The notes beneath the pieces were generated by a model, which worked only from the letters and a program-made list of their open reading frames with translations, ran no database searches and had not been told where the DNA came from. From assembly GCA_964579415.1 (NCBI GenBank), contig CAZOGW010000003.1, forward strand, positions 7,759-71,758: DNA of 64,000 bases, in the 5' to 3' direction. The stretch is from an uncultured Acidimicrobiaceae bacterium. Its GTDB lineage: Bacteria; Actinomycetota; Acidimicrobiia; Spongiisociales; UBA5794. The translations under genes were made by a program, and so were the position numbers. Positions 10,797 to 45,067 of this stretch are shown piece after piece (position 1 is the first letter of the stretch; every line of letters starts with the position of its first letter).

Positions 10797-10801
10797 CCGC
10801 T

Positions 10802-25800: not shown

Positions 25801-25809
25801 GAGGGTCGG

Positions 25810-27797: not shown

Positions 27798-28024
27798 GGG
27801 CCCCCGGTCTGGCCCCTGGGCACTCGACAGGTGGCGTTGACCTAAGTTTTGCACGTGAGTGAATTGAATAGGGCCGGCCCGCAATGACATCAATTGACCG
27901 ACCGATCCGAGACATGCTGGCTTCGCATGCTGCCGACGCTGGCGCGGCACGCACTGCCTTCGAATCGGAGCCGAGATGGCCCAGCCCAACTCCCAGCCGA
28001 GCCTTCATTCACAGCGGGCCCGAG

Positions 28025-31000: not shown

Positions 31001-31363
31001 GTCGTTGAGGGACCACTGGGCGTGAGTGCCGCTGCCTGTGCGGGCCCGCTCGTTCTTGACCAGCCGATGTACCAGACGTCGGATCGCGCCGATCGGGAGC
31101 CGGCCACCTTCGAAGTCCAGGACGAAGGTGCCGAAGCCTTGGTTCTTCGTCAGGGGCGGGATCTGCGAGATCCGCTTGAGATTGGCGACCTTCTCCGGGT
31201 CGAGATGGAGCTCCTCCGGCTCCCACGCCAACTCAAGTTCATCCCATGACATGCCGTCAGGGATCGGCCAATCGAGCCCGTTGAGCAGCAGATCGAGCAG
31301 GTGATCGGCTGAGGTGGGAGCCGCTCGGAGCAGCTTGCGCATGCGATCCTCGGCGACGCTCAT
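28025..31363 (-). CDS. Large gamma-class N6-adenine DNA methyltransferase (PglX / DrmMI / type IIG-like), 1112 aa
   Basis: LGAYYTPLPVVRFMI; motif I LDPANGTGTFLV; motif IV IIGNPPY. Long unknown N- and C-terminal extensions as in PglX. Overlaps the upstream gene by 4 bp (31360-31363). Confidence 0.85.
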   Translation of the reverse strand: MSVAEDRMRKLLRAAPTSADHLLDLLLNGLDWPIPDGMSWDELELAWEPEELHLDPEKVANLKRISQIPPLTKNQGFGTFVLDFEGGRLPIGAIRRLVHRLVKNERARTGSGTHAQWSLNDLLFFCLSDGHEKLLHVVNFRERDGKRVLRVMSWSDELTSTRLDLLVRRGVPDLVWSPGSGPRIILSPDSGDGFHGYREGIRSAAALSRRMAEVAQDVRDEVRALYEVETEDGPIRALFQDVRTQLLGDLTPKRFADVYAQTMVYGLLTARIAHPDQFKVEQSVSTLRFDNDFLDAIYSRFRDDSDGIIDVDELGLNELAEELARTDVDELLADFGADNQRDDPVVYFYEEFLAQYDPEQRRNLGAYYTPLPVVRFMIRAVDTALKMSVGLQRGIADQSTWQDLCWDAPPLARPSDPILNALDPANGTGTFLVQWLKAARGVGRSAEDVLDRYTAFEVSLASYAVSQLKIQLEVGVSDVSVPVFLTDTLEGPSQVLEIFDDPISLEGHRANERKFERNHTVIIGNPPYDRDESQTKSTVRRKGGLVRYHGLTNDYGLIRDFIAPLKRDGMGVYAKSLYNDYVYFWRWAIWKACEQSPGPAVIALISPSSFLAGPAFAGMREFMRKTFDELWLVDLGGEGRGVHREDNVFDGVLTPVVIGVGVRYRTRGPQRTQIRYRRIRGDRATKFQLLDNLAGLDQADPSWLTIEGGCASSFLPAADTSFDSLPLLTDLFPWRETGLHFYRTWPIAESADDLVRRWSALMAAEPAGRGALLKESRDRKASKPYKDVLTGTPLAPIEALPATSPVPTIRRYAYRSFDREWCMPDGRLGDYLRPQLWGCSSDQQIYFQTLVMSPLGAGPALMAFADVPDCHAFRGRGDKGVMPLWRDAARTSSNVASGVLELLRKELRAGIEPEDVAAYVYGILGTGAYSDRFAKEVAALTTGPRIPITKDVGCFDETVALGRDLIGWHTFGERGRQDELVISTREVRRISGRPTTFGYDSKTSELLVGNGAIAPVSQDVYDFEVSGLRVLQSWLGNRMAGGKGRKSSPLDDIRYVEWVFTDELLAVISILQNTIDVTPVARDLLDRILDGPVFSPRDFPPPTDAERMAPKY

Positions 31364-34300
31364 CGGATCTCCATCCAGCAGAGCGTCTTGGGGCTGGGTG
31401 CGTCGAGTGGCAGTTGTGTCTCCTTGCGCAGTCGCTTGGTCTCACCACGCTCGAATTCGCGCAGCGTAGCTCGGAGGCTGGATCGGTCACTAAACGCTTG
31501 CGCTTGGTCAGTCGGTTGGGCGGAGATAGCAGCGTCGACGGTGTGCAGGCCCCGCTCGACGCCGTCCGAGGTGCGCAGCGCCCACTCCACCGCGCCGGTA
31601 TCGAGCGTCCATTCCGAGTCCGCGTCGTCGTCGTGCGCCTTGGTCAGGACGGGCACGCGGCGGCAGATGAACACTCCAGACGGTTCGCCGGTCTTCGCCA
31701 CCGAGATACCCTCGGGCAACCGTTCGATCAGCTCCTCCAGGCCCGGGTCGTCCTTGACCAGCTGAAGCCATGTGAGGCGGAGCGCCTCGATCGGGGCGAT
31801 GTCGCCGTCGTATTCGTCCTTGAACGCCTGGAAGACCTTCACGTCATCAAACATGTCGCTCTCGTCGAAGAGCTTGCCGCCAGGTATGCCGAGGGCTTTC
31901 GAGATCATGAGCGTCTTGTTCTGAACTCGGTTGTAGAGCGTGAGCAATGCCTCGATCTCTGCGGGCGGAAGGAAGTTGCGGATCTGAATGTGCCCTCTGG
32001 ACTTCTTGGCGGACGGCTTCTCCCGGATGAGCTGGGCCTCGATGACAGGGTTCATCCGGCGGTCTACACGACCGATGCGCTGCATGAGCCGCACCGGGTT
32101 CCAGTGGATGTCGTAGTTGACCAGCAGAGTGCCGTCCTGGAGGTTCACACCCTCGCTCAGAACGTCGGTGGAGATGAGGACTCGAAGAGGGGCGAGGGTC
32201 CTGCGGTCGGCTGCTGAAACCTTGTTGTAGAACGGGGCGAACCGCTTGATCATCGCGTAGCGGTCGTTGCTGCGGGTCCCGTCCAGGCGGTCGATATCGG
32301 CGACGCCATCCTTCCTGAGCTGTTCTTCGAGGTAGCGAGCGGTGTCGGCAAACTCCGTGAACACGATGACCTGTTCATTGCGGAACTCTGGAGTGAAGAC
32401 CGCCTTGTCCAGGGTCCTGATGCCTGCCTTGGACGGTCCGAGCAGCAGGTCGCGCAGGCGCAGGTACTTGTCGTCGTACCCGGCACCGGCGAGGGTCAGG
32501 TCCATGAAGCGGTTGAGCTGGTCGAGGTCCTCGAAGGCAGCGTCGATCATCTCCTGGAGGTTGTACTCCCCACCCACGAGGTTGACGCCCAGCTCGCCCA
32601 GCTCCTCCTCGGTGAGATCCTCCTCGTGCCAGACTTCTTCGAGCGTTGAGCGGTAGCGGTCGTGGATGGCCTGCAGCGTCGAGTCATTCGCAGCCCGCCA
32701 GTCGGCGAGCCGCATCTGCTGATCGGGGTCGATCCTTGTGTTGACGTCCAGCCAGTGCAGGATCTTGGCCGACAGATCCAGACAGGAGCCAGCGAATGCG
32801 GCGAGGCTGGACTCGAACCGCTTCAGGAAGATGGTCCGGATGAGGGCGACGACCTGACGCTGCCGGTTCTCCGCCACCGTGTCGACGTCTTCGTCCTTCG
32901 AGAACGCCAACGGGTAGTACATCGGCAGGACGAACAATGGGGTCTTGCGGTTGAAGGCATTTTGAAGTTCGGTGAAGAGCGGGGAGTAGAGAGCGCCGAA
33001 CTCGTACTCCACGACGCGAGGGACCTGGGTCTCTGGGAATACCACGTCCGCGCCGCCAACGATTCGCGAGCTCTCGATGGCGTATTTTCGGCTGCTCTGG
33101 TGGATGATCGATTGGAACAGCTTGTCCCGTGACATCAGGCCCGCGATGGCTGCGTGGTCGGGCACGTTGCTCTTGAACGGCTTCTCCAGTTCGACGGTGT
33201 ATTTGCGCAGACTGTTGACGCCGATGCTGGCGAAGTGGTCGTCGGCGTCGACCCCGGTGAACAGCTCAGCCTGATGCACAAGGTCGAAGAAGGAGTTGTT
33301 GATAGGTGTCGCGGTGAGCAGGAACACGGTCTTGCCCTGGCAGATCTCATGCATCCGCCACCATCGAGAACCCCACGGATTCTCCTCTGTGGGGGTCTTG
33401 CCGTGGTTCCGGAAATTGTGGGCTTCGTCGATGATGATGACATCGGCTCGCTCGGCGAGGTGCTCGATCTCCGCGAGACCCTGCTTGGTTGTCAGGTCGG
33501 TGTGCGCCCGGACAAGCACGTTGGAGAACTGGCCGAACAGCGAGGGAAGCTTCTCCTTGAGCTCGGGGCTCCACACGGCGTCCTGGCCAGTCTTGGTGGC
33601 CATGATGAGCACGTTCTTTCGGTGTCGCACCGCGTAGTACTCCGTGAGCATCAGGCCGACGAAGGTCTTGCCCAGCCCGACGCCGTCAGTGAGGAATCCG
33701 CCATTCCACCGTCGTGACATCTCAATCAGTGCGTGGAACGCCTCGCGCTGGTACGGCGCCAGCATCGGGTAAATGACGGATTCGGATTCCTCCCAACTCT
33801 TGTCGGTCTGATCCACGTTCGCCGTCAGTGCATGAAGCGCCTTCGCATAAACCTCGAACGGAGTGAACCCGCGGATGTTGTGCTCTAGCACCGACAGTAG
33901 CTCGGCATTGACAGGGGTGGCCAACTCCCAATGCTGCTCATACCATGACTGCAGGTCGGCGACCTCCGGGCCCTGGAACCTTACATTGAGCTCGACGTTC
34001 TGCGTCAGTCCCGGGCGGGTGAAGTTGGAGGAGCCGACCAATGCCGCGGAGCCGACAACCTTGAGCTTGCTGTGCGTGATGTATGCCTTCGCATGGAACT
34101 TCTTCGGCTTGTAGACGCGAATCTCGATCTTGTCGTTGCGGATGCCATCAACGACAGCTTCTATGCCGGCCAGAAAGGCGTCTCCGTTCTGGCGCTCGAT
34201 AACGATGGATGTATCGAGCGCGGCTGCGATTGCGTCTGCGGTCGTGCGGCTAGTCTCGCCGCCGATGAGAAGGCGGATCTTGTTGACCTTCTGCCAGGCT

Positions 34301-34446
34301 CCATCCAGAGCGAGGAAGGCTCCGATCTCGAAGTGCCCACTGGCGATGTCTATCGCCGAACTGATGTCGCACCACTCTCGGACGTACTGCAGCGCCTTCC
34401 ACTCCTCGTCGGTGTTGTCGACGATGAACTGCTCAGGAGTCGCCAT
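31360..34446 (-). CDS. Phospholipase-D-family (HKD) nuclease domain fused to SNF2-family helicase (DrmC+DrmD-like fusion), 1028 aa
   Basis: N-terminal KFHAKAYITHSKLKVVGSAALVGSSNFTRPGLTQNVELN is a PLD HxK(x)4D...N motif. SNF2 motifs GFLTDGVGLGKTFVGLML (I), DVIIIDEAHNFRN (II) and VFLLTATPINN (III). C-terminal helicase lobe LRVLISTDVLSEGVNLQDGTLLVNYDIHWNPVRLMQRIGRVDR. Confidence 0.85.
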   Translation of the reverse strand: MATPEQFIVDNTDEEWKALQYVREWCDISSAIDIASGHFEIGAFLALDGAWQKVNKIRLLIGGETSRTTADAIAAALDTSIVIERQNGDAFLAGIEAVVDGIRNDKIEIRVYKPKKFHAKAYITHSKLKVVGSAALVGSSNFTRPGLTQNVELNVRFQGPEVADLQSWYEQHWELATPVNAELLSVLEHNIRGFTPFEVYAKALHALTANVDQTDKSWEESESVIYPMLAPYQREAFHALIEMSRRWNGGFLTDGVGLGKTFVGLMLTEYYAVRHRKNVLIMATKTGQDAVWSPELKEKLPSLFGQFSNVLVRAHTDLTTKQGLAEIEHLAERADVIIIDEAHNFRNHGKTPTEENPWGSRWWRMHEICQGKTVFLLTATPINNSFFDLVHQAELFTGVDADDHFASIGVNSLRKYTVELEKPFKSNVPDHAAIAGLMSRDKLFQSIIHQSSRKYAIESSRIVGGADVVFPETQVPRVVEYEFGALYSPLFTELQNAFNRKTPLFVLPMYYPLAFSKDEDVDTVAENRQRQVVALIRTIFLKRFESSLAAFAGSCLDLSAKILHWLDVNTRIDPDQQMRLADWRAANDSTLQAIHDRYRSTLEEVWHEEDLTEEELGELGVNLVGGEYNLQEMIDAAFEDLDQLNRFMDLTLAGAGYDDKYLRLRDLLLGPSKAGIRTLDKAVFTPEFRNEQVIVFTEFADTARYLEEQLRKDGVADIDRLDGTRSNDRYAMIKRFAPFYNKVSAADRRTLAPLRVLISTDVLSEGVNLQDGTLLVNYDIHWNPVRLMQRIGRVDRRMNPVIEAQLIREKPSAKKSRGHIQIRNFLPPAEIEALLTLYNRVQNKTLMISKALGIPGGKLFDESDMFDDVKVFQAFKDEYDGDIAPIEALRLTWLQLVKDDPGLEELIERLPEGISVAKTGEPSGVFICRRVPVLTKAHDDDADSEWTLDTGAVEWALRTSDGVERGLHTVDAAISAQPTDQAQAFSDRSSLRATLREFERGETKRLRKETQLPLDAPSPKTLCWMEIR

Positions 34447-34761
34447 CTTGCTCCCCTCGCCTGCTTAGTGCCTCTAGGACTGCGAGTGGCTGTGTTCTTG
34501 GTGGATTGGCTATGTCGGGCCGTTGCCGGCCCGAGCTTGTGACGGTAGCGGGCTGCGGCGTCGATCTCCACCGGGGGTGATCTGGCGAACTGGGCACTTG
34601 CTGGCGTCCGAGGTCGTTGGAGGTCAGCACCGATCGCCGAGCATCCCGTAAGCCCGGGACTGAGTCCGCCGTGATGAGGCCGGGAAGGCCGGGCGCCGCC
34701 CGCTCCGTCGGGGCAGCTCTGCGGTCGACTTCCGAGAAGTCGAGCTGCAAAGCTCACGCCC

Positions 34762-35001
34762 ATGGCCAGCAAGCACGATCTCCCCGCGTGGGTCGTCGAG
34801 GCGCTCACCGAACTGGGCGGTTCCGGAAGCGTCGTGGAGGTCTGCGAGGTGATCTGGCGTCGCCACGAGCCTGAGCTCCGCACGTCACGCGAGCTCTTCT
34901 ACGCGTGGCAATACGACGTCAGGTGGGCGGCACAACAGCTGCGCGATTCCGGCCGACTCCAGCCGATGGCCGGAAGGAGGGGTCCCTGGGAGCTCGCCTG
35001 A
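34762..35001 (+). CDS. Small winged-helix protein (79 aa), Mrr_N-like wHTH
   Basis: LPAWVVEALTELGGSGSVVEVCEVIWRRHE...WQYDVRWAAQQLRDSGRLQPMAGRRGPWELA follows the pattern of the Mrr N-terminal winged helix. Confidence 0.4.
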   Translation: MASKHDLPAWVVEALTELGGSGSVVEVCEVIWRRHEPELRTSRELFYAWQYDVRWAAQQLRDSGRLQPMAGRRGPWELA

Positions 35002-35141
35002 GCAGGCAACGCCCGAGCCTCACGTCCCCATGAGAACGTTCGCTTATTGGTCGCGTGCCTCTTCGCGGTGGTCGATTCAGGGTCAGCAAGCTTCGATGAT
35101 CGTGGCCGGGCGATGTAGGTCCCTCGGGGAAGTCATCGACG

Positions 35142-35747
35142 TCAGTGACCGCCGGCGACCTTGAAGCCCAATCCCGCGAGTCGCTCGGCGGTTGCGCTCT
35201 CCTCGGCTTTGGCCTGATCGCGATCGAACAGCGGGCCCACCGGCTCTAGGTCCGGGCGTCGTCGCAGGAAGTGCTTGGCCACCACAGGTGAGTAGAGCTT
35301 TCCATGAGCTCCGACCGCGAGAGTCCGATGCTGCTCGATCCGGCGGTCCACGTCGATCGCCGTCTCCCCTACGTAGACCCAGCCAACAGTCCCCGGGGGA
35401 CTCGGACTCAGCTCGACGACGTAGACGCGCCAGAGGCGCTGATCCCGGTTGACGGTGAAGCCGAGCCCGGCCAGGCGCCGACAGGCGTCCCGTCCCGTCG
35501 CATCACTCGGATCCGCGAGGTCGGGGCGCAGCCTCTTGACACGTTCGCGAGCCCACTTGGGCTTCCCCCTTCCCGCCGCCAAAGCACCCAGCTTCGCCTC
35601 AGTGTCGAGCGTCAGGATGACGACCAGGTTCGGCCGATCACCCACTCGGCGGGGCACGACATCATCGACTTCGATGATCGCCAGACGCAGCGCAGGAACA
35701 GCCTGAAGGCCACCGCCGGTGGGCTGAGAGGTCGCCTCGCGTGTCAT
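35142..35747 (-). CDS. Hypothetical protein with a possible GIY-YIG-like nuclease core; start uncertain (the track ORF extends to 35894 through a low-complexity P/R/S-rich leader)
   Basis: WRVYVVELSPSPPGTVGWVYVGETAIDVDRRIEQHR reads as GIY...YIG...R..E.H. RLAGLGF occurs twice, the second copy at the C-terminus. Internal Met MTREATS taken as the start. Confidence 0.4.
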   Translation of the reverse strand: MTREATSQPTGGGLQAVPALRLAIIEVDDVVPRRVGDRPNLVVILTLDTEAKLGALAAGRGKPKWARERVKRLRPDLADPSDATGRDACRRLAGLGFTVNRDQRLWRVYVVELSPSPPGTVGWVYVGETAIDVDRRIEQHRTLAVGAHGKLYSPVVAKHFLRRRPDLEPVGPLFDRDQAKAEESATAERLAGLGFKVAGGH

Positions 35748-35871
35748 TAGCTGCGATCCTCGCTCGGGCTGGCGGTGACCCATGAGAGATCGGGGATTCG
35801 CCACCGGGCGCGGGGACCCTTGTGGCGAGGGACGCGGGCGCACGGACGGCGTGGCATCAGTCGCGCGTGCC

Positions 35872-36519
35872 TCACCAGCGTCTCCAAGTGTCACGGCCAG
35901 ACAGCTCCATGGATGTCACGAAGTCCGCGGCCGCCAACAACCCGGGGCCGTTCGCGGTCTGAAGGGGTAACGGCGCGCTGTCGGGGCTGCTCAACCAGAA
36001 GTGTTGTTCGGCGGCGCGGAAGTCGCTGTCAACGACGACCAGCCGACCCTCCGGCCATTGAACAGGTTGGTCGATAGCGTGGAACAACGTGTGGAGTTCC
36101 GCGCTCATCCTTCGGACGTCCGCTGCAGCCCGCTCCTCGTCCATGTAGACCCCACCCCAGCCGCGCTGGGCGAACACTGCGGCTCGATCGGTGACGATGA
36201 GGTAGGTGATGCCGTAGGAGTTCGCGCCATGACCGCAGTGGCCGAGGTAATAGCGCTGTCGCCAGTCGCCGTCCACGAAGCGCGACACCTCGGGAGAGAG
36301 AAGGTAGGCATCCGCCACGGTTGCAGTCTCGGTCTTGCTCCAGCCGCGCTCGTGTAGAAGGCAGCCCCATGCCCATTCGTGGTAGTGCGACAGCTCTGAC
36401 GCGAACCGCGCAGGGACAAAGGGCTCGCCCAAATCCGCCCGCCGCCATCCCGTGAACGACTCATCCACGTCTGGTGACAGGGTCGGTTCGTCCATCAAGT
36501 CGTCGGAATCGGATGCCAT
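35872..36519 (-). CDS. Hypothetical protein (about 215 aa from MASDSDDLMDEP); unknown function
   Basis: The ORF 35872..36759 has an R-rich low-complexity leader, so an internal start is preferred. GC-rich third codon positions. Confidence 0.4.
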   Translation of the reverse strand: MASDSDDLMDEPTLSPDVDESFTGWRRADLGEPFVPARFASELSHYHEWAWGCLLHERGWSKTETATVADAYLLSPEVSRFVDGDWRQRYYLGHCGHGANSYGITYLIVTDRAAVFAQRGWGGVYMDEERAAADVRRMSAELHTLFHAIDQPVQWPEGRLVVVDSDFRAAEQHFWLSSPDSAPLPLQTANGPGLLAAADFVTSMELSGRDTWRRW

Positions 36520-36640
36520 CCTTACCTCCTGGCGGTGTCGAGTCGCTTGAGCTCTGTGACGCCCCGGGCGCTCCGATCCGTCACGTCGGCGAGTGCGCTC
36601 GCCCTCAGCGACCTGGGCTCCGGGCAGTCCCCCCACTCGG

Positions 36641-38407
36641 TCATGTCGCCAAAGCCGCCACTGATGGTCGGACCCTGCCCACGCCCCCTGCACGCTCGTG
36701 CAGCCACTCCTGGACCGTGACCCAACCCATGCAGTCCGCAGCAGTGGCCTGACTCTCAACCCACTTCGGAGCCTGCTGCTTCAGAAGAGCCTTCGGCAGG
36801 TTGACCAGGTCCGCCGCCATGGCAGTCGTGAGCGCCCGCGGCCAGACATCTTCGGCTTCCCGCACGGCGAGCTTGCGATCGAGCGGCGCCTGCCCGTACC
36901 TGAGGACGATCCGATTCGGCTGGGTGTGGAAGTTGTGGAGGATCTTGGCCGAGCGCTTGCCCATCTGGTCGCTGTCGAGGAGGGCCAGCACCGGCTTGGA
37001 GGTGGATTGCGACATGAGGACGGCGATCGCAGGCAGCTTCGTGGCTCCCGCCGCGGCCACGAACTGGACTCTGTCGAGCAGATCCTCGCGACCGGCTATC
37101 CGGGCTGCTATCCGCATGTAGTCGATGTCCGTCTGCCCCTCGGTGATGACGACGAAAGCCGCGTGCCTGTCGACGGACTGGGCGGTTGCGAGCAGCCGAC
37201 TCACGCCTGCGTCCCGGAAGAGGAACCCCGCGTGATCGCGTCGACTGTCCGAATGGATAGAAGAGCGACCATCCGGCGCCTTGCTGATTCCGACAACTCG
37301 ACCCTCCTTTGCGTCGAGGTCCGGGATCATGAAAGGCGAATGGGACGTGACGAGCACGGACGTGTCTCGGCTGGCCGCAAGACCGACCAGAGACTCTCGC
37401 ATGAGCTCCTGGGCGGCCGGATGCAGGAAGGACTCGGGCTCCTCCACAGCAAGCACCAGGGAGCGATGGCTCTGCGCGGCCAGGTAGCGAAGGACGGCGA
37501 CCAGCACGCCCGCGCGCACGCCGGTGCCCTTGGCGCGAATGTCGGACTCCATCGCGTCGCGCAGCTGCACGCTCATCGAGGAGAGGGTGTCCTGGAGGGA
37601 AGGGATGGCTGGCAGGAGATCGGCCGAGGACATCTCCGGGAACAGCTGCCCAGTCATGGCTGCGATGTCGTCGCTCAGTGGTCGTAGGAGGGATTGCCTC
37701 ACGTGTTCGGCGTAGTGGTTGCGCGCCTCCTTCGCCCGATCCAGGTCCTCCCTCAGGTGATCCTCGATCACGCCTTCGAGGACCTCCCGGAAGGGGCCTT
37801 GCAGCACCGAATCAAGCGATTCACCGCTGCGGATCTTGACGAGGCGAACGTGCTCGTGGAGGAGGTCGAAGAGCCTGTCGTGCTCGCGGGACCCCTCCGG
37901 AGGGTAGGGCGAATCGCTGGCGGTCGGCTTCTTCCTCCCGAGCCCGGGGACCCCCAGGTACTCATGGCGTGTGACGGTGCCGGCGCGGACCCGCACGAGC
38001 GTGGTGAGAACGATGCGTCCCTGGGCCGCATGGGTGCCCCGACGATTGAACTGTCGGTTCGCCGACCGCTCGTAGTCGAGGGCACGCCTCAACAGCGTCC
38101 GGTCCCGGCTGGGCGCACGCGAGTCCGGGCGCGCTGTAGTCGTGAGGATCAGCTCGACCCGGAACTCCTTCGTCGCCGCACCGTCGGCGAATTTGGGAAA
38201 GTCCAACCGGGGGTTGACGTACGCGTGCGTCGAGGGGTCCTCCCAATGCGCCCCACCATGCAGCGCGATCCCGATCGCATCGAGGATGTTCGACTTCCCG
38301 CTGTTGTTGGGGCCGACCAGGCACGTCAATCCCGGACCCACAGGCATGTGGTGCGCCGAACCCGCGAATGAGCGGAATGCGCTGACCTTGACCGACTCCA
38401 GAATCAT
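36641..38407 (-). CDS. OLD-family ATP-dependent endonuclease (AAA/ABC-type ATPase + TOPRIM), 588 aa
   Basis: GGAGGG Shine-Dalgarno-like sequence then ATG at 38407: MILESVKVSAFRSF...LTCLVGPNNSGKSNILDAIGIAL (P-loop). LVLAVEEPESFLHPAAQ is the Walker B/D-loop of OLD/GajA-type ATPases. TOPRIM FVVITEGQTDIDYM...LALLDSDQMGKRSAK. The track ORF 36641..41248 (1535 aa) continues upstream only as antisense read-through of the Hsp70-like gene. Confidence 0.85.
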   Translation of the reverse strand: MILESVKVSAFRSFAGSAHHMPVGPGLTCLVGPNNSGKSNILDAIGIALHGGAHWEDPSTHAYVNPRLDFPKFADGAATKEFRVELILTTTARPDSRAPSRDRTLLRRALDYERSANRQFNRRGTHAAQGRIVLTTLVRVRAGTVTRHEYLGVPGLGRKKPTASDSPYPPEGSREHDRLFDLLHEHVRLVKIRSGESLDSVLQGPFREVLEGVIEDHLREDLDRAKEARNHYAEHVRQSLLRPLSDDIAAMTGQLFPEMSSADLLPAIPSLQDTLSSMSVQLRDAMESDIRAKGTGVRAGVLVAVLRYLAAQSHRSLVLAVEEPESFLHPAAQELMRESLVGLAASRDTSVLVTSHSPFMIPDLDAKEGRVVGISKAPDGRSSIHSDSRRDHAGFLFRDAGVSRLLATAQSVDRHAAFVVITEGQTDIDYMRIAARIAGREDLLDRVQFVAAAGATKLPAIAVLMSQSTSKPVLALLDSDQMGKRSAKILHNFHTQPNRIVLRYGQAPLDRKLAVREAEDVWPRALTTAMAADLVNLPKALLKQQAPKWVESQATAADCMGWVTVQEWLHERAGGVGRVRPSVAALAT

Positions 38408-38626
38408 GGGCTGCCCTCCGTTGAGGCACGGCAGTCGCACTGTGCAGTGCCGAGGCCCCTCGATTCCTGCTGACCAAGTATTCCGCTGGGTCGCTCGGCC
38501 GATGACCTTCAGGGTGCAGTTCAGTTCTTGAGCTTGCGCGGTTGACGTGGTCGGCCGACCCTCGGCGCCGCGCGTCCGGCTCCCCACTGCGCCTAGCCTC
38601 GGAGGCCCGAGTCGCGGCCGCATGCC

Positions 38627-41092
38627 ATGGGGAAGGCGAGGTACCCGATGTCCGCACCCTTCGATTGGCTCGCCGATTGGCAGCAGCCCCTCACCACGAA
38701 GGACTCGCTGCGCGTTCTCGGGATCGACCTGGGCACCACCAACAGCACGATCACGGAGATCGTCTGGGAGCCGGGCTCGGATCAGCCGCCGCGTCCCGAG
38801 GTCATCGATGTCGTCCAGCCCACCCACTTGGGGCAGGAGTACGCGGCTGACGTCGTTCCCTCCGTGGTGGCGCTCACGGGCGGCGCGATTCTGGTGGGCG
38901 AGGGGGCAAGCCGACTCCGAGGCACCGCCGAGCCGCACCTCACCCGGAACAAGGACATCTTCTGGGAGTGCAAGAACGAGATCGGCACACGCCGGACCTA
39001 CCGAGGTGCGCCGGATGGGTTCAAGACCCCACGCGACATCGCTTCGCATGTCCTGCGGTTCCTGCACGAGGCCGCGCTCGACTATGCCCCTTCGCCGATC
39101 GATCGGGTGGTCATCACCGTGCCCGCCTCCTTCGGCTGGGAGCAGCGCCAGGACACGTTCCTCGCCGCGGAGCAGGCGGGCCTCCACGTGCGACCCGGGG
39201 ATCTCCTCGACGAACCGGTGGCCGCATTCCTCGACTATCTGTCCGTGCACGGTGGGCAGGCCGCCCTCGGCAGGCGCTCGGTGAGCCGCCTCATGGTGCT
39301 GGACTTCGGTGGCGGCACCTGCGACGTGGCGATCCTGGAGGCCCGGGCTGGCAGCGCACACGCACCCGCACAGCCGGGGCCGGCCGGTGGACTCGGCGTC
39401 TCCAGGCTGGGGGTGTCCCGGTTCCATCGCATCGGCGGCGGTGATCTCGACACCGCCCTGGCGCTCAAGGTCCTCCTGCCCCAACTCGTGGCCCAGAACG
39501 CCGACGCGGGGCGCTTCTCGTACTCGGACAAGCGCGACTACTTGCTGCCCGCCCTCACGGGGGTGGCGGCTGTGCTCAAGATGAAGCAGTCCGAGTTGGT
39601 CCGGAATCGGCGACGTCTGGGCAGGTTCGACCCCAAGGATCCAGCGCTGACCGTCTCCCTGCCAGGTGTCTCCACCATCCCGGTCGGGGTCAGGGGCGGC
39701 GTGGTCCAGACGCTGCGCCTGGCCGCCCCCTCCCTCACGTACGACCAATTCGTCCAGGCGGCCCAGCCCTTCCTCTCCCGCAGGCTGCTCATGCCGCGTG
39801 GCGACGAGTACCTCCAGGCCCAGAGCGTGTTCGCGCCCGTCGCCGACGTGCTGCAGCGCAGCGATCTCGAACCGGGTGACATCGACGCCTGTCTGTTGGT
39901 AGGGGGCAGCAGCCTCCTCCCGCTGCTCGCCGACGAGGTCGAGAAGTACCTGCCGGACGCGGCGATCCTCACCTACAAGGAGTCTCGCGACGCGCTGCGC
40001 TGTGTTGGCCGGGGCGCCGCCGTCCATGCCCTGCTGCTCGCCGCGTACCACGAGAGCCCGCTGTCGCCGACGACGGGAGACGCGGTCAGCATCCGCACAC
40101 GCCAAGGCTTGGAGATCATCGTCCCCCGCAACGCTCCGCTGCCCTACCCGGCGGCGGGCCGCCAGGCCACCCGCCCGAGCCTGCGCATGGCGACGGGGGA
40201 CGGCGCGAGCGCGCAGCCCCTCACCCTCCAGGTGATGTCCGGCATCAGCGAGACGGACGCCCGGACTCTGAGCCTGCACCCGATCACGGTGCAGGCGCCC
40301 GTACGCGCCGGCGACCCCATCGAGCTGGACGTCAGCGTCGACGAGAACCAGCGGCTGTCGCTTCGGGCCGAGGTGCAGACCTCCGCAGGCCCCCAGACGT
40401 TCACTCTGGAGCTGGACAACCCGTTCTCCGTCGTGGTGAATCCGGACGCCAAGCGGGAGCGCATCCGCGAGCTCGAGGAACAGGCGGACGGCATGAGCCG
40501 TGCAGAGCGGATCGAGGCGATCCAGACCCTCGCCCGCCTGCATTGGGAGATCGGCGAGCGCGAGCGGGCGCGTGAATACCTGGAGCGCGTGCTGCCGATG
40601 GTCCCGGCACATCGCCGCGGCTACGTGCTCAACCTCCTCGGCATCATCAGCGGCGAGCTGGGCGACACCGATGCGCAGGTGGAGTACTACCAGGCTGCGG
40701 CAGAAGCCGGGCTCGGCACCGTGCCCCTGTTCAACCTGGCGATCGCTCTCCTGCGCCAAGGCAAGCCGGACGAGGCCCTGCTCATCATCGACGACGTGGT
40801 GGCTCGCGACCGAAGTCCGGAGAACCACGCCCTTCGCGGCCGGATCCTCGATGAGCTGGGTCGCGACACCGAGGCGCGAGCGGCGCAGCAGAAGGCGATC
40901 GACGGGCTGCACAACCCCAGAGGCGAGGACGACTTCGTCCTCTCCTGGGTCAAAGGCGCGGCGGACGCGGTCGGTGACGAGGACAAGGCCCGGTCGATCA
41001 AAGAGGAGCAGGCTCGACGACGGCGCGAGGGCGACGGGGGACGCAACGCTGCCCCCATCGGTACCCCGGACGGCTTGCCGGACCGGGCCTGA
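38627..41092 (+). CDS. Hsp70/DnaK-superfamily ATPase with C-terminal TPR repeats (821 aa)
   Basis: LRVLGIDLGTTNSTITEI is the phosphate-1 motif. VLDFGGGTCDVAILE is the DxGGGTxD motif. The C-terminal 200 aa have TPR-like helices (AIQTLARLHWEIGERERAREYLERVL..., YYQAAAEAGLGTVPLFNLAIALLRQGKPDEALLIIDDVV). Confidence 0.8.
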   Translation: MGKARYPMSAPFDWLADWQQPLTTKDSLRVLGIDLGTTNSTITEIVWEPGSDQPPRPEVIDVVQPTHLGQEYAADVVPSVVALTGGAILVGEGASRLRGTAEPHLTRNKDIFWECKNEIGTRRTYRGAPDGFKTPRDIASHVLRFLHEAALDYAPSPIDRVVITVPASFGWEQRQDTFLAAEQAGLHVRPGDLLDEPVAAFLDYLSVHGGQAALGRRSVSRLMVLDFGGGTCDVAILEARAGSAHAPAQPGPAGGLGVSRLGVSRFHRIGGGDLDTALALKVLLPQLVAQNADAGRFSYSDKRDYLLPALTGVAAVLKMKQSELVRNRRRLGRFDPKDPALTVSLPGVSTIPVGVRGGVVQTLRLAAPSLTYDQFVQAAQPFLSRRLLMPRGDEYLQAQSVFAPVADVLQRSDLEPGDIDACLLVGGSSLLPLLADEVEKYLPDAAILTYKESRDALRCVGRGAAVHALLLAAYHESPLSPTTGDAVSIRTRQGLEIIVPRNAPLPYPAAGRQATRPSLRMATGDGASAQPLTLQVMSGISETDARTLSLHPITVQAPVRAGDPIELDVSVDENQRLSLRAEVQTSAGPQTFTLELDNPFSVVVNPDAKRERIRELEEQADGMSRAERIEAIQTLARLHWEIGERERAREYLERVLPMVPAHRRGYVLNLLGIISGELGDTDAQVEYYQAAAEAGLGTVPLFNLAIALLRQGKPDEALLIIDDVVARDRSPENHALRGRILDELGRDTEARAAQQKAIDGLHNPRGEDDFVLSWVKGAADAVGDEDKARSIKEEQARRRREGDGGRNAAPIGTPDGLPDRA

Positions 41093-41093
41093 G

Positions 41094-42323
41094 ATGTGGC
41101 TCGTCCCCTTCGAGGACCTCTCGGCCGACCAAGCAGCTGCGGTGGCGCTGGACACGAGCAAGCACCGGATCATCCGCGGTGGTCCGGGCTCCGGCAAGAC
41201 CTTGGTGCTAGCCCACCGGGCCAAGGCCCTGATCGAGCAGCGCGGCATCCCACGGGAGCGGCTGCGCGTGCTCGTCTATACCCGGGTGCTCAATGCCTAC
41301 ATCCGGCAAGGCCTGGCCGACCTTGGGCTCGCAGACGTCTGCCAGGGCTACGACGAGTGGTGCCGATCGGTTCTGAGCGCTCGGCGGATCCCGACGCCGA
41401 AGGGCAGTCCCGGGAGCGTGACCGAGCTGCTCCGGACGCTCGTACTGGAGGCCCTGTCGCAGGACGCCGAGCCGATGCTCGACGCGATCCTCGTCGACGA
41501 GGGCCAGGACCTCACCGAGACGATGCTGCGCATCCTGCCCCGCGCCGCTCGCCACGTGACCGTGGCCATGGACTCCGCGCAGCAGCTCTACGAGGAGGGC
41601 TCCGACCTGGGTCGCGTCGCGGCAGCCCTCTCCTTGCCGGCCCGCCCCGCTGCCCTCCTGACGGCCTATCGCTGCACTCCGCACATCGTCGGTCTGGCAT
41701 CGGTCTTCCTCGACGACCCAGGGGAGCGGCACCGCTTCCGCTACGCCAACCTGATGCCGCTCGGCGCGAGCGAGCAGCCGGTGCTCGTCACCTCCCCGGA
41801 TGAGGAGGCAGAGCTCGACACGCTCGCCGCTGCCCTCCAGGAGCGGGCCTTCGTGGGCCAGCGCAGCGTCGTGCTGCTCCCCACCAATCGCGACCTGTTC
41901 CGCTTCAAGAAGCGGTTGCGGGAACGGGGCATGGACGTCTATCACCGCAAGGAGCTCGGCTTCGACGGCAACCGGCCTCTCCTGCTCACCTACCACTCCG
42001 CCAAGGGTCTCACCGCCGAGGCGGTCTTCCTGCCCAAGCTAACCGTGGGAGGCTTCGACAGCAGGCCCGACGACATGGTTGCCCGGATGCTGTTCGTCGG
42101 CGTGACCCGGGCCACCGAGTGGGCGTGGTTGGGGACCCGAGCGTCCGACCGGCTGCCGCTGCTCGCCCGGCTCGGGGCCCCCCTTCGCGAGGGTCATCTG
42201 GTGGACCTGTCGACTTCGGCGCCGCAGACCGTCGAACCCGACGGGGGCGGCCGGCCGAAACCGCCGACGGAGCCGACGGACGACTCTGCGGGCGACGACG
42301 AACTCATGGACCTGTTCGACTGA
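41094..42323 (+). CDS. Short UvrD/Rep-like SF1A helicase (409 aa)
   Basis: ATG 2 nt after the Hsp70-like stop. IIRGGPGSGKTLVLAHRAKALIE (Walker A), ILVDEGQDLT (DExQD), C-terminal TYHSAKGLTAEAVFLPKL and LFVGVTRATEWAWL (UvrD_C motifs). Confidence 0.75.
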   Translation: MWLVPFEDLSADQAAAVALDTSKHRIIRGGPGSGKTLVLAHRAKALIEQRGIPRERLRVLVYTRVLNAYIRQGLADLGLADVCQGYDEWCRSVLSARRIPTPKGSPGSVTELLRTLVLEALSQDAEPMLDAILVDEGQDLTETMLRILPRAARHVTVAMDSAQQLYEEGSDLGRVAAALSLPARPAALLTAYRCTPHIVGLASVFLDDPGERHRFRYANLMPLGASEQPVLVTSPDEEAELDTLAAALQERAFVGQRSVVLLPTNRDLFRFKKRLRERGMDVYHRKELGFDGNRPLLLTYHSAKGLTAEAVFLPKLTVGGFDSRPDDMVARMLFVGVTRATEWAWLGTRASDRLPLLARLGAPLREGHLVDLSTSAPQTVEPDGGGRPKPPTEPTDDSAGDDELMDLFD

Positions 42324-42334
42324 GAGGCAGCGCG

Positions 42335-45067
42335 ATGACCGAGATCGAGCACCGGTACGCGATGTTCGTTAGAGGACTCGCGGATCGGCTCGCTATGCCC
42401 GCTCCGGATATCCAGGCCGAGCTGTCCGGCCTGCGTGAGGCGTGGGCGCAGCCCCTGCCTCGCGAGCACCGCCTCGTGAGGCTGCCACCCGATGTGTGGG
42501 GGCGGCTGGCCGCGGCGATCAACGGCCATCGGTTCGGAGCCGACCCGTACGACCGGTTCCTCCCACCGGCGATCCTGCGAGGCCTCGACGCGACGTCGGC
42601 GGAGGGGAGGGGGGCTCTCGAGTCGGCCTGGCCGCTGGTCCAGACGTGGCTGGCCGTCCAGGCCGGGCTGTCGACAAACGCCGACAGCCTTCGGCTGATC
42701 AATGAGCGCTACGCGCCACACGTCTGGACCCAGCAGATCGACGAGGGCGACGATCTCGGCGAGGATGCCGATGGGCGTCACCAGCCCGCGAGTGACGGCC
42801 AAAGCGAGACCGAGCGCGGCGGGGGGCGTACCCCGATGGGGCGCGCATCCGAGCCAGCTGGGCGCACGCCGGCCTCGCCCGGGGTTGCCCTTCCACTGGA
42901 TGCGGCCGCGCGCCGCCAGCTTGCACGCTTGCAGGACTCTTTGCCCGACTCGGCCGCGCAGCGAGTCTGCCTGCCCGCGGTGCTGCTTGGGCTGTGGTGT
43001 GGCTCGCTGCGCATCCCGCGGCTGGCATCCGAGTGGGACGAGGTGCGTGGGCTGGTCGAGGAGGGGAGTACCGATGCCGTGGAGAGTCTGCAGCAGGTCG
43101 CTGCGATCCGAGTCTCGATGCTGGCGGAGAACTCCATCGGCGGCCTGGTCCCGGACGCGTGGGAGCGATTGGTGACCTGGGCCTACGCCCGGGCCTCCCG
43201 GTGGGCCGGACAGCGCACGCTCGATCCGGTCCTGCACGCCCAGCTCATCGAGGGCTGGCGGGCCGACCCGCTCCGGGGTGAACCGGTCGGCCCCGGCCTG
43301 GCTGCCAGCCCACGCTGGTCGGCCACTGTGGTCGAAGCGATCACCACCGGCAGCGCCCCCGAGATGACGACCGACGCCGACGTCGTGGTCTCCCGGCCGG
43401 CCTCCACCGCCGATGGGCTGCTCGCCGAGCTGGACGATCTCGAGGGCCTGGCGGAGGTCAAGACGGCCGTCCACGAACTGGTGCAGCAGGTGCAGTTCGA
43501 CCAGGCACGTCGGGTGCAGGGCCTGCCCGTCGTGCCGATGACACGGCACCTCGTCCTCATGGGCAACCCGGGCACGGGAAAGACGACAGTCGCACGGCTG
43601 ATCGGGCGCATCCTGCATGCGGCCGAGGCACTGCCCAGCGCGACGTTCCTCGAAGTGCGGCGAGGCGACCTCGTCAGCAAGTACTACGGCGAGACCGAGA
43701 AGCGGGTCCGCCGGGCCATCGACCAAGCCAAGGGTGGAGTGCTCTTCATCGATGAGGCGCACGCCCTGGCCTCTGGCGATCGGGACGAGTCCGGTGCGCA
43801 CCTCCTCCCGGAGCTCGTCGCCGGCATGGAGAACCAGCGCGACGAGTTCGTCCTCATGCTGGCCGGGTACTCCGCACCCATGCAGAAACTGCTGTCCTCG
43901 GACCCCGGCTTGGCCGGCCGGTTCGGCAGGATCCTCAGCTTCCCCGATCTCAGCGACGACGCCCTGACCTCGGCCTTCCTCAAGCGGGCCGCGGCCAGCA
44001 GGTACCGTCTCGCCGACGACGTCGAGGGCGCGGCGCGCTCCTACTTCGCGCGGCTCAACCGGGGCCAGGGCTTCGCGAACGCTCGTGAGGCACGCAGCCT
44101 GTTCGAGAGCGCGGTTGCCCGGCTCGCGTCCAGGTACGCCGCGGATCGTGAAGCGGTGGACGTAACCGTCATCACGGCTGACGACATCCCCAGGCCTGCG
44201 GGGCCAGGTCACATCGACGAGCCTGCATTGGCGCAGGCGCGCGCTGGGATCGACCGGCTTGCGGGACTCGAGTCAGTCAAAGCCGCGCTGTCCAAGGTCG
44301 CGGACAAGGCGCGACTCGAGCTGCTGCGCGTGCAGCGCGGGATCGCAGCGAAGCCGGTGGTGCCCGGTCACTTCGCGTTCGTGGGGCCGCCGGGCACCGG
44401 AAAGACCACGGTCGCCCGGCAGCTCGGGCAGCTGTTCGCGGCACTCGGTGTGCTGCGCTCCGGGCACGTTGTGGCGGCCAACCGCTCCACTCTCGTTGCC
44501 GAGTTCATCGGACAGACCGCTCCCAAGGTGCGCGAGCAGGTGCAGGCGGCGCTGGACGGTGTCCTGTTCGTCGACGAGGCCTACGCGCTCATGCCGGCGG
44601 ACGCCGCGCGGGACTTCGGAGCCGAGGCCGTGGCCACCCTGGTGGAGGAGATGGAGACCCACCGCGAACGGCTGGTGGTTGTGCTGGCGGGCTATCAGGA
44701 GGACGTCGATCGGCTCCTCGACGCCAACCAGGGATTGCGGTCGCGCGTGAACAATGTGCTCCAGTTCGAGGCCTTCACCCGAGACGAGTTGCGCGTGGTC
44801 GCCGACCAGATGGCTGCCGACTCCCGACTCGTGCTCGAGCCGGACGTGGCCGACCTGTTGGCCGAGCGCGCTTTCGCTGCCCGCAGCGAGCCTGGTTTCG
44901 CGAACGCGCGGGCCATCCGCAACCTGCTCGACGAGGCGGAGGGTCGACTGGCGGCCCGCCTGTCGAGCAGGCCGGCCGACCAGGTCGCCACGCGCGAGCT
45001 CTCGCTGATCACCGTTGCAGATGTGCCTGCAGCGGTCAGCCGGGAGCGCATCATCGGGTTCGTATAG
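42335..45067 (+). CDS. Protein with unknown ~400-aa N-terminal region and two tandem CbxX/SpoVK/EccA-type AAA+ ATPase domains (910 aa)
   Basis: ATG at 42335, 12 nt after the UvrD-like stop; the track ORF starts earlier at 42119 inside the upstream gene. Two copies of the LxxLxGLxxVK...HLVLMGNPGTGKTTVARLIGRIL...GVLFIDEAHAL pattern: VVPMTRHLVLMGNPGTGKTTVARL/GGVLFIDEAHAL and VVPGHFAFVGPPGTGKTTVARQL/DGVLFVDEAYAL. Confidence 0.8.
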   Translation: MTEIEHRYAMFVRGLADRLAMPAPDIQAELSGLREAWAQPLPREHRLVRLPPDVWGRLAAAINGHRFGADPYDRFLPPAILRGLDATSAEGRGALESAWPLVQTWLAVQAGLSTNADSLRLINERYAPHVWTQQIDEGDDLGEDADGRHQPASDGQSETERGGGRTPMGRASEPAGRTPASPGVALPLDAAARRQLARLQDSLPDSAAQRVCLPAVLLGLWCGSLRIPRLASEWDEVRGLVEEGSTDAVESLQQVAAIRVSMLAENSIGGLVPDAWERLVTWAYARASRWAGQRTLDPVLHAQLIEGWRADPLRGEPVGPGLAASPRWSATVVEAITTGSAPEMTTDADVVVSRPASTADGLLAELDDLEGLAEVKTAVHELVQQVQFDQARRVQGLPVVPMTRHLVLMGNPGTGKTTVARLIGRILHAAEALPSATFLEVRRGDLVSKYYGETEKRVRRAIDQAKGGVLFIDEAHALASGDRDESGAHLLPELVAGMENQRDEFVLMLAGYSAPMQKLLSSDPGLAGRFGRILSFPDLSDDALTSAFLKRAAASRYRLADDVEGAARSYFARLNRGQGFANAREARSLFESAVARLASRYAADREAVDVTVITADDIPRPAGPGHIDEPALAQARAGIDRLAGLESVKAALSKVADKARLELLRVQRGIAAKPVVPGHFAFVGPPGTGKTTVARQLGQLFAALGVLRSGHVVAANRSTLVAEFIGQTAPKVREQVQAALDGVLFVDEAYALMPADAARDFGAEAVATLVEEMETHRERLVVVLAGYQEDVDRLLDANQGLRSRVNNVLQFEAFTRDELRVVADQMAADSRLVLEPDVADLLAERAFAARSEPGFANARAIRNLLDEAEGRLAARLSSRPADQVATRELSLITVADVPAAVSRERIIGFV

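What the first reader, a model, noticed from the sequence alone, without database searches (positions are those of the whole stretch)
36641..38407. OLD-family (GajA-like) ATPase-TOPRIM nuclease without a cis UvrD partner
The protein has the full OLD/GajA architecture: P-loop, EEPE..LHP, and TOPRIM with DxD. In Gabija and class 2 OLD systems a UvrD-like gene follows on the same strand. Here the only UvrD-like gene (41094..42323) is 2.7 kb away on the opposite strand, inside another operon. So this is either a standalone class 1 OLD or a rearranged Gabija-like pair.
Basis: partly seen in the sequence, partly recalled or inferred. Interest (0 to 1): 0.5.

Follow-up and report, generated by a model that had tools for sequence, protein, structure and literature searches.

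The report
Standalone OLD nuclease in defence island
The gene is a real, intact OLD-family ATPase-nuclease that stands alone (Class 1 type) in a crowded anti-phage island; the nearby UvrD-like helicase belongs to a different conserved module, so this is a new member of a known kind and not a scrambled Gabija system.

Summary
[quoted passage not shown] Every catalytic residue is intact and at least 95% conserved across 106 relatives.

By sequence it is closest to the Class 1 references. A family profile hits Thermus scotoductus OLD at 6e-20 and P2 Old at 8e-17, against GajA at 1e-11 over the ATPase only. The PADLOC 'Old' model scores 119 bits, AriA 84 and GajA 57.

No helicase follows it. The UvrD-like gene at 41094..42323 (+) is the middle gene of an HSP70-TPR / compact helicase / double-AAA+ module. 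That module recurs in three unrelated contexts without any OLD gene, so the 'rearranged Gabija pair' reading is rejected.

The six-member subclade containing the window protein (44-52% identity) has variable neighbours. Its sister clade (100/100 bootstrap) sits in Type III R-M / OLD / UvrD-nuclease / HerA operons, but nothing from that operon is in the window.

The two small genes downstream (215 and 201 aa) are not conserved partners.

Verdict: a divergent Class 1-type OLD, most likely a single-gene DNA-nicking and degrading defence. Interest is low to moderate.

The parts
36641..38407 (-). OLD-family nuclease gene, 588 aa: ABC ATPase (about residues 1-400, with a helical insert at about 198-276) plus a TOPRIM domain and C-terminal helices (about residues 415-588)
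   Evidence: Coding frame supported. Pfam AAA_15/AAA_21. PADLOC Old 5.8e-35. TsOLD 6p74 is the best PDB match. AlphaFold model has pLDDT 91.6.
38414..38419 (-). Shine-Dalgarno-like GGAGGG, 6 nt upstream of the ATG
   Evidence: Read directly from the sequence.
38291..38314 (-). Walker A / P-loop G32-PNNSG-K38-S39
   Evidence: G32, N34, N35, G37, K38 and S39 are invariant in 106 sequences.
37421..37444 (-).
   Evidence: Invariant in 106 sequences. Aligns with TsOLD 'IIEEPEMYLHP', in which E276 and H283 were shown to matter (PMC7049728).
37127..37141 (-). TOPRIM glutamate E423 (metal A) and D427 (metal B)
   Evidence: Invariant. 'TEGxTD' aligns with TsOLD 'VEGYGD', i.e. E377 and D381 (PMC7049728).
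36968..36976 (-). TOPRIM DxD motif, D478-S-D480 (metal A)
   Evidence: Invariant. Aligns with TsOLD D431/D433.
36851..36859 (-). E517-A-E519, the predicted second metal-B site
   Evidence: E517 in 101/106 and E519 in 104/106 sequences. The position matches TsOLD S478/E480 and BpOLD T506/E508 by order in the fold; this assignment is an inference.
36779..36781 (-). K543, a conserved lysine on a C-terminal helix and the candidate counterpart of BpOLD K562 / TsOLD R487
   Evidence: K in 105/106 sequences. It lies in predicted helix 539-553. The role is inferred and the geometry was not checked.

Best explanation
This is a single-gene, Class 1-type OLD-family nuclease acting as one anti-phage module among many in a dense defence island.

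**Shown here.** The gene is intact and encodes an ABC-type ATPase with a helical insert, fused to a TOPRIM nuclease. Both active sites are complete. It has no conserved neighbour.

**Inferred from characterised Class 1 enzymes (P2 Old, TsOLD, Vibrio cholerae OLD).**
- The protein dimerises through the helical insert.
- The ATPase (K38, E322/E323, H329, H356) acts as a regulatory switch.
- The TOPRIM site cuts DNA by two-metal catalysis. Metal A is held by E423, D478 and D480. Metal B is held by D427, E517 and E519. K543 stabilises the transition state.
- It nicks invading phage DNA and/or degrades it 5'->3', which blocks phage replication.

The trigger is unknown.

The UvrD-like helicase 2.7 kb away is not part of this system.
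For: **Gene and motifs:**

**Family assignment:**
- PADLOC Old 5.8e-35 (119 bits), against AriA 84 bits and the best GajA model 57 bits.
- The A2 family profile hits TsOLD at 5.8e-20 with the TOPRIM E and DxD aligned, and GajA at 1.4e-11 over the ATPase only. The Class 2 Bp/Xcc C-terminal structures are not hit.
- hhalign against P2 Old gives probability 98.8, E 8e-17.
- Foldseek's best hit is 6p74 at 2.5e-18.
- The model is confident: pLDDT 91.6, pTM 0.80.

**No partner:**
- The minus-strand neighbours are a 215-aa gene and a 201-aa gene. Neither has a relative in any of about 90 fetched loci.
- The two closest relatives of the 215-aa protein (L095; L097/L098) are not next to an OLD.
- Contexts in the window's own subclade differ from locus to locus.

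**Helicase excluded:**
- The HSP70-TPR + ~400-aa UvrD-like pair recurs in L089, L091/L092 and L093/L094 without an OLD.
- The window holds no homolog of the sister clade's helicase, Type III R-M or HerA.

**Defence island:** Tiamat TmtA, PDC-S53, DruE, a type IIG-like MTase + PLD-SNF2, MkoA-like helicases and a SIR2 protein are all in the window.
Against: - No activity, oligomeric state or phage phenotype was tested. The whole mechanism is transferred from relatives with only 16-23% identity.
- The sister clade at 36-40% identity is helicase-linked, so the lineage is not purely 'standalone'.
- The C-terminus has about 70 residues of helices carrying the conserved Lys. That is longer than TsOLD and recalls the Class 2 helical domain.
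- The 215-aa gene lies 121 nt downstream on the same strand with its own AGGAGG site. No terminator was found between the two genes, so co-transcription cannot be excluded.
- Context sampling for the subclade is thin: six loci, four of them on contigs of 5.5 kb or less.
Confidence: 0.78

Rival explanations
1. A rearranged Gabija-like (Class 2) pair: OLD works together with the UvrD-like helicase at 41094..42323, which an inversion separated from it.
For: - The helicase has weak GajB-model hits, best 5.8e-13, and lies only 2.7 kb away.
- The sister clade of this OLD is tightly coupled to a UvrD-type helicase.
- One subclade member (P0003) has a NERD-SF1 helicase directly upstream.
Against: - The 409-aa helicase is the conserved, abutting partner of an HSP70-TPR gene in three independent contexts with no OLD nearby. 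In one of them the same double-AAA+ gene follows.
- BLASTP against the P0003-linked helicase gives E 0.18. Against the sister-clade 934-aa helicase it gives 2e-4, over the P-loop region only.
- Its best PADLOC model is 'NERD+UvrD' C3a187, not GajB.
- OLD scores higher on the Old model than on any GajA model.
Confidence: 0.03
2. A new multi-gene OLD system: OLD acts with the 215-aa protein (35872..36519) and/or the 201-aa GIY-YIG-like protein (35142..35747) encoded just downstream on the same strand.
For: - The three genes share a strand, with gaps of 121 and 124 nt. The 215-aa gene has a strong AGGAGG site, and no terminator was detected.
- The 215-aa protein belongs to a real family of 522 relatives with a confident predicted fold (pLDDT 88) and no PDB match.
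- Relatives are fused to a PD-(D/E)XK nuclease, and one is encoded overlapping the end of recD. P2 Old is genetically tied to RecBCD (PMC10568477).
- The 201-aa protein has a weak GIY-YIG match, E 0.03.
Against: - Neither protein has a relative next to any other member of the OLD family in the fetched loci.
- The two closest relatives of the 215-aa protein are not beside an OLD.
- The gaps of more than 100 nt contrast with the 4-nt overlaps seen in true OLD operons.
- The GIY-YIG hit is below Pfam's threshold.
Confidence: 0.1
3. OLD is an accessory of the adjacent restriction-modification-like module (PLD-SNF2 31360..34446 and type IIG/ISP-like methyltransferase 28025..31363), by analogy with the sister clade, where OLD is embedded in a Type III R-M operon.
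For: - In the sister clade OLD sits between the Type III Mod gene and a helicase-nuclease, with stop/start overlaps, in at least five genomes.
- Among 66 neighbours at 21 family loci, ResIII occurs 6 times and N6_N4_Mtase 5 times.
- The window's OLD is on the same strand as, and 2.2 kb upstream of, an R-M-like pair.
- There are weak hits to MADS MAD3 and to 'restriction system-associated AAA ATPase'.
Against: - The window's R-M-like genes are unrelated to the Type III genes of the sister clade.
- Two unrelated genes and a 695-nt gap separate OLD from the PLD-SNF2 gene.
- GC content is 0.59-0.63 in the R-M block and 0.66 in OLD, which suggests separate acquisition.
- Other subclade members have no R-M genes nearby.
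Confidence: 0.06
4. A non-defence, housekeeping OLD-family ATPase/nickase, like archaeal Cran1.
For: OLD-family proteins can have cellular roles (PMC12796447).
Against: - The gene sits among at least six recognisable defence modules.
- The family is patchily distributed and its neighbourhoods vary.
- The nearest relative is only 52% identical. That fits a fast-evolving accessory gene, not a conserved core one.
Confidence: 0.03

Closest known systems
Class 1 OLD nucleases: Thermus scotoductus OLD (PDB 6P74), phage P2 Old, Vibrio cholerae OLD
   Same: - Single polypeptide of 500-600 aa with an ABC ATPase, a helical insert and a TOPRIM domain.
- The same EEPExxLHP, H-loop, TOPRIM E..D and DxD motifs.
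- These are the best sequence and Foldseek matches.
- No dedicated partner gene.
   Different: - Only 16-23% identical.
- The ABC signature position holds a conserved KGTG.
- The predicted catalytic basic residue is a Lys on a helix 24 residues after E519. In TsOLD it is an Arg 7 residues after E480.
- The C-terminal helical region is longer, about 70 aa.
- It lies inside a defence island, whereas the 2023 review describes Class 1 genes as not lying near other defence genes (PMC10568477).
Gabija GajA / Class 2 OLD (B. cereus GajA 8SM3; B. pseudomallei OLD 6NK8)
   Same: - The same two-domain architecture and two-metal TOPRIM site.
- A conserved Lys on a C-terminal helix, as with Bp K562.
   Different: - No UvrD-like gene follows it.
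- GajA HMMs score about half as much as the Old model.
- The family profile aligns with GajA over the ATPase only, and does not hit the Bp/Xcc C-terminal structures.
Sister clade in Actinomycetota: Type III Res / Mod / OLD / UvrD-PD-(D/E)XK helicase-nuclease / HerA operons (Kribbella, Nocardioides, Nostocoides, Mycobacterium; loci L006-L008, L010, L013, L016, L029)
   Same: - 36-40% identity over the full length, with all catalytic residues shared.
- Sister groups in the NJ tree with 100/100 bootstrap support.
   Different: - The window lacks every partner gene of that operon.
- The window subclade has a deletion of about 16 residues between E519 and K543: 24 residues against 37-44.
PARIS AriA/AriB (Class 4) and retron Eco8 OLD (Class 3)
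   Different: - The ATPase and TOPRIM are fused in one protein, not split as in PARIS.
- No reverse transcriptase was found among the scanned neighbours, and no Rfam RNA family in the window.

Membership tests
OLD family nuclease | N-terminal ABC-type ATPase with Walker A, Walker B, D-loop and H-loop | tested here: met
OLD family nuclease | C-terminal TOPRIM domain with a conserved Glu and a DxD motif | tested here: met
   E423 and D478/D480 are invariant and align with TsOLD E377 and D431/D433.
OLD family nuclease | Second metal site and a catalytic basic residue (Ts D381/S478/E480 + R487; Bp E404/T506/E508 + K562) | tested here: inconclusive
   D427, E517, E519 and K543 are conserved in at least 95% of sequences.
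OLD family nuclease | Metal-dependent nuclease and ATPase activity | not testable with these tools
   Needs biochemistry.
Class 1 OLD | Single gene with no conserved partner (no helicase, reverse transcriptase or split TOPRIM) | tested here: met
   Neighbours are not conserved. Contexts in the subclade vary. Sampling is limited.
Class 1 OLD | Length about 500-600 aa | tested here: met
   588 aa. This is the range used in PMC12392090.
Class 1 OLD | Lacks the Class 2 C-terminal helical domain, with the basic residue in a loop close to the metal-B Glu | tested here: inconclusive
   The model predicts four to five helices over residues 518-587, with K543 on helix 539-553. This region is longer than in TsOLD and shorter than the 90-residue Bp helical domain (PMC6755086).
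Class 1 OLD | Closer in sequence to Class 1 references than to other classes | tested here: met
   TsOLD 5.8e-20 against GajA 1.4e-11 and Eco8 OLD 1.6e-8. P2 Old 8e-17. PADLOC Old scores above AriA and GajA. No full reference phylogeny was built.
Class 2 OLD / Gabija | [quoted passage not shown] | tested here: not met
   The downstream genes are 215-aa and 201-aa proteins with no helicase domains. The only PF00580 gene is divergent and belongs to an HSP70 module.
Class 2 OLD / Gabija | GajA-type sequence (matches GajA profiles best) | tested here: not met
   The best GajA model scores 57 bits against 119 bits for Old.
Class 3 OLD (retron effector) | Adjacent reverse transcriptase and retron ncRNA | tested here: not met
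   No RT domain in any scanned gene of the window. No Rfam match in the window. The NCBIfam retron Eco8 model scores only 24.5 bits against a cut-off of 250.
Class 4 OLD (PARIS) | ATPase (AriA) and TOPRIM (AriB) encoded as separate genes | tested here: not met
   Both domains are in one 588-aa ORF. AriA models score below the Old model.

The most novel reading that the evidence does not exclude
OLD and the 215-aa protein encoded 121 nt downstream form a two-component system. The small protein belongs to an uncharacterised family of 522 members. It has a conserved HxGHGxNSY...QxGWGGVYMD motif and a confidently predicted fold with no PDB match. One relative is encoded overlapping the end of recD, and another is fused to a PD-(D/E)XK nuclease. 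In this reading the small protein couples OLD activity to RecBCD or DNA-end status. That would give a molecular handle on the old genetic link between P2 Old and RecBCD.
Probability: 0.07. Interest if true: 0.6.

Novelty: new member of a known kind. Interest (0 to 1): 0.27.

Why it matters
For the gene itself, little changes. It adds a divergent actinobacterial lineage to the Class 1 OLD nucleases: the nearest relative is 52% identical, and the lineage has a characteristic deletion of about 16 residues before the conserved lysine. Few Class 1 members have been tested for defence.

The comparison is more useful than the gene. Two sister clades at 36-40% identity differ sharply in context. One is hard-wired into Type III R-M / helicase-nuclease / HerA operons, and the other is free-standing. 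This is a clean natural pair for asking what an OLD enzyme gains or loses with a helicase partner. It also fits published trees in which Class 2 nests inside Class 1.

The window also shows that genes which look like Gabija parts can sit close together while belonging to different modules. That is a caution for annotation based on proximity alone.

Tried and rejected
- **First gene callers failed.** Two callers based on GC3 and codon scores were misled by the high GC content and merged OLD with the antisense of the HSP70 gene. Trimming start codons fixed this.
- **Promoter and terminator scans gave nothing.** The scan of 34300..38800 found no promoter and one chance-level terminator. The OLD-to-215-aa spacer folds no better than shuffled sequence, z = 0.64.
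- **No close relatives on plasmids.** Identity is at most 26%. PHROGs gives only families of unknown function.
- **No shared neighbours.** The window's neighbours were searched against the fetched loci and nothing was shared with OLD relatives.
- **A word-index search misled.** It found only the 215-aa protein itself. The exhaustive HMMER search then found 522 relatives.
- **The 201-aa protein stays unassigned.** It has a sub-threshold GIY-YIG match and nothing in PDB or PHROGs.
- **A DISARM guess was wrong.** I first read 17876..34446 as DISARM-like. PADLOC shows that 21154..25800 is DruE, i.e. Druantia.
- **No tRNA or Rfam element marks the island**.
Full report

Yes. The window is high-GC (0.59-0.71), so mechanical ORFs run long. 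The ORF ending at 36641 extends on paper to 41248 (1535 aa). Only its last 588 codons are a gene. Upstream of 38407 the frame is the antisense of a + strand gene.

Third-position GC on the minus-strand frame is 0.74-0.87 between 36700 and 38350. A codon log-odds model trained on long ORFs gives +133 for 36641..38407, and a start-trimming gene caller recovers exactly these coordinates. The ATG at 38407 has GGAGGG 6 nt upstream. The N-terminus MILESVKVSAFRSF aligns with the N-termini of relatives. The identical protein is in the public collection, and 224 relatives have E<=1e-5.

**2. What is the protein?**

- **Domain and profile matches.**
  - Pfam finds AAA_15, AAA_21, AAA_23 and SMC_N.
  - Among defence-system profiles the best is PADLOC 'Old' (5.8e-35, 119 bits), ahead of AriA (84 bits), HEC-01A (75 bits) and the best GajA model (57 bits).
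- **Catalytic residues.** In an alignment of 106 family members these residues are invariant or at least 95% conserved:
  - ATPase: G32/K38/S39 (Walker A), K293-G-T-G296 (signature position), E322/E323/P324/E325 (Walker B), H329 (D-loop) and H356 (H-loop).
  - Nuclease: E423 and D427 (TOPRIM), D478/D480 (DxD), E517/E519 and K543.
- **Solved structures.** A profile of the family hits the Class 1 T. scotoductus OLD at 5.8e-20, with the TOPRIM Glu and DxD aligned to Ts E377 and D431/D433. GajA is hit at 1.4e-11 over ATPase segments only. The Class 2 Bp/Xcc C-terminal structures are not hit. Profile-sequence comparison with phage P2 Old gives probability 98.8, E 8e-17.
- **Predicted structure.** The AlphaFold model is confident (pLDDT 91.6, pTM 0.80). 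It shows an ABC head, a helical insert (helices 198-276) and a TOPRIM sheet, followed by helices over 518-587.

**3. Is there a partner?**

The published classes are defined mainly by gene context: Class 1 alone, Class 2 with a UvrD-like gene immediately downstream, Class 3 in retrons, Class 4 split (PMC10568477, PMC12392090). Published trees place Class 2 inside Class 1 (PMC12796447).

Downstream of OLD on the minus strand lie these genes:
- a 215-aa gene (35872..36519; 121-nt gap; AGGAGG site);
- a 201-aa gene (35142..35747);
- after a further 695 nt, a PLD-SNF2 gene and a type IIG/ISP-like methyltransferase.

None of these is a helicase of the UvrD type. Neither small protein has a relative in any of about 90 loci fetched around OLD relatives.

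**4. The UvrD-like gene.**

The 409-aa product of 41094..42323 starts 2 nt after the stop of an 821-aa HSP70-TPR gene. A 910-aa double-AAA+ gene follows it. I searched its relatives (388 hits) and examined three contexts.
- In L089, L091/L092 and L093/L094 a ~400-aa helicase of this family directly abuts an HSP70(-TPR) gene.
- In L091/L092 the same 901-aa double-AAA+ gene follows.
- No OLD gene is present in any of them.

The helicase resembles the helicases that truly neighbour OLD relatives only at generic SF1 motifs (E 0.18 and 2e-4). It is therefore part of a separate, conserved module. The 'rearranged Gabija pair' reading is rejected.

**5. The family around it.**

A scan of species-representative genomes returned 79 loci. 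I called genes in the 25 closest of them and clustered the neighbours.
- **Helicase-linked loci.** Eight loci carry a 920-1040-aa UvrD + PD-(D/E)XK helicase-nuclease after OLD, usually with a stop/start overlap (best GajB model 6e-54). Five of these also have Type III Res and Mod immediately upstream, and two have a HerA-like ATPase downstream.
- **Neighbour domains.** Pfam counts over 66 neighbours at 21 loci are UvrD-helicase 8, PDDEXK_1 7, ResIII 6 and N6_N4_Mtase 5.
- **Tree.** An NJ tree with 100 bootstraps gives three results, each with 100% support. The window protein groups with P0002-P0006. The helicase-linked proteins form their own clade. The two clades are sisters.
- **Contexts within the window's subclade differ:**
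  - P0002 has an AAA_21-like gene plus a 136-aa gene upstream.
  - P0003 has an MZB protein and a NERD-SF1 helicase upstream with a 4-nt overlap.
  - P0004 has an overlapping upstream gene that is cut off by the contig end.
  - P0005 and P0006 have no partner apparent on short contigs.
  - P0007 is a split copy.
- **Subclade signature.** The subclade shares a deletion of about 16 residues: 24 residues between E519 and K543, against 37-44 elsewhere.
- **Nothing from the sister operon is in the window.** There is no homolog of the sister clade's helicase, Res, Mod or HerA.

**6. Most likely mechanism.**

By analogy with P2 Old, TsOLD and V. cholerae OLD (PMC7049728, PMC12392090), the protein probably dimerises through the helical insert and uses the ATPase as a switch. 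It would cut DNA at a two-metal TOPRIM site: metal A held by E423/D478/D480, metal B by D427/E517/E519, with K543 in the role of Ts R487 or Bp K562. The intact motifs are shown. The oligomeric state, the role of K543, the substrate and the trigger are inferred.

The C-terminal helices make the Class 1 versus Class 2 structural criterion inconclusive. They are longer than in TsOLD and shorter than the 90-residue Bp domain (PMC6755086).

**7. Rivals.**

- **A three-gene cassette with the 215- and 201-aa genes** cannot be excluded, because the genes share a strand and no terminator was found. It lacks any conservation support. The 215-aa protein is nonetheless interesting:
  - an exhaustive search finds 522 relatives;
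  - the family has no Pfam model;
  - the fold is predicted confidently and has no PDB match;
  - one relative is fused to a PD-(D/E)XK nuclease, and another overlaps the end of recD.
- **A link to the adjacent R-M-like pair** is suggested only by analogy with the sister clade. The intervening genes, the 695-nt gap and a GC shift count against it.
- **A housekeeping role** is unlikely in an island that also carries Tiamat, PDC-S53, Druantia DruE, MkoA-like helicases and a SIR2 protein.

**8. Verdict.**

This is a real, intact, divergent Class 1-type OLD nuclease and a new member of a known kind. Of the two interpretations offered, the first holds and the second does not.

Noticed in passing
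window 38627..45067 (+): A three-gene operon: an HSP70-TPR protein (821 aa), a compact UvrD-like SF1 helicase (409 aa), and a double AAA+ protein (910 aa, EccA/CbbX/SpoVK-like). The HSP70 + ~400-aa helicase pair recurs, abutting, in unrelated contigs L089, L091/L092 (there with the same double AAA+) and L093/L094. The HSP70-TPR protein has no PADLOC model hit. This looks like a conserved candidate conflict or defence module.
   Followed up: partly
window 35872..36519 (-): A 215-aa protein of an uncharacterised family. It has 522 relatives by exhaustive HMMER but none by word-index search, and no Pfam model. Conserved motif: H94-x-G96-H97-G98-x-N100-S101-Y ... Q118-x-G-W-G122-G123-V-Y125. The AlphaFold model has pLDDT 88 and pTM 0.85, with no PDB fold match (best E 0.09). 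Relatives occur free-standing, fused to PD-(D/E)XK_13/REase-ARP (P0358) or to TY-Chap3 (P0252), and once overlapping the stop of recD (L098).
   Followed up: partly
window 35142..35747 (-): A 201-aa protein with a GIY-YIG-like motif (VYVVEL...WVYVGETAIDVDRRIEQH). The Pfam GIY-YIG match has E 0.03, below threshold. It has no PDB, PHROGs, PADLOC or NCBIfam hit, and the start codon is uncertain: the mechanical ORF starts at a GTG at 35894.
   Followed up: partly
loci L006, L007, L008, L010, L013 (also L016, L029): A conserved actinobacterial operon of Type III Res (1022 aa), Type III Mod (906 aa), OLD (585 aa), a UvrD + PD-(D/E)XK helicase-nuclease (934 aa) and, in L006 and L007, a HerA-like ATPase, with stop/start overlaps. 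It is effectively a Gabija-like pair wired into a Type III R-M system. Its OLD still matches the 'Old' profile better than the GajA profiles.
   Followed up: partly
window 17876..25800 (+): A 1548-aa DEAD + Helicase_C + MZB protein matches Druantia DruE (4e-178). It is preceded by an overlapping 1093-aa gene with no family hit, which may be DruH-like. This is probably a type III Druantia system.
   Followed up: no
window 28025..34446 (-): A type IIG/ISP-like methyltransferase (1112 aa; REase_MTase_IIG 9e-212; Type_ISP_C domain) overlaps a PLD + SNF2 helicase (1028 aa; 'HKD+Snf2' C3a139 9e-50). GC falls to 0.59-0.63 here against 0.66-0.71 in the flanks, which suggests separate acquisition.
   Followed up: no
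window 4279..8787 (-); 9672..13543 (+); 3..2750 (-) and 48907..52356 (+); 55166..56866 (+): Further defence genes are present. There is a full-length Tiamat TmtA (E=0) and an HTH-M78 peptidase followed by PDC-S53 (E=0). Two MkoA-like helicases with similar RNase_H_2 + SF1 domain content are also present; the one at 3..2750 also has a PD-(D/E)XK domain. A SIR2_2 protein is ThsA-like. The whole 64 kb reads as one defence island, with no tRNA and no Rfam element.
   Followed up: no
locus L085 9397..11158: The closest truncated relative (P0007, 52% identity) is the C-terminal part of an OLD gene split into 186-aa and 385-aa ORFs. This is probably a frameshifted pseudogene or an assembly error.
   Followed up: no
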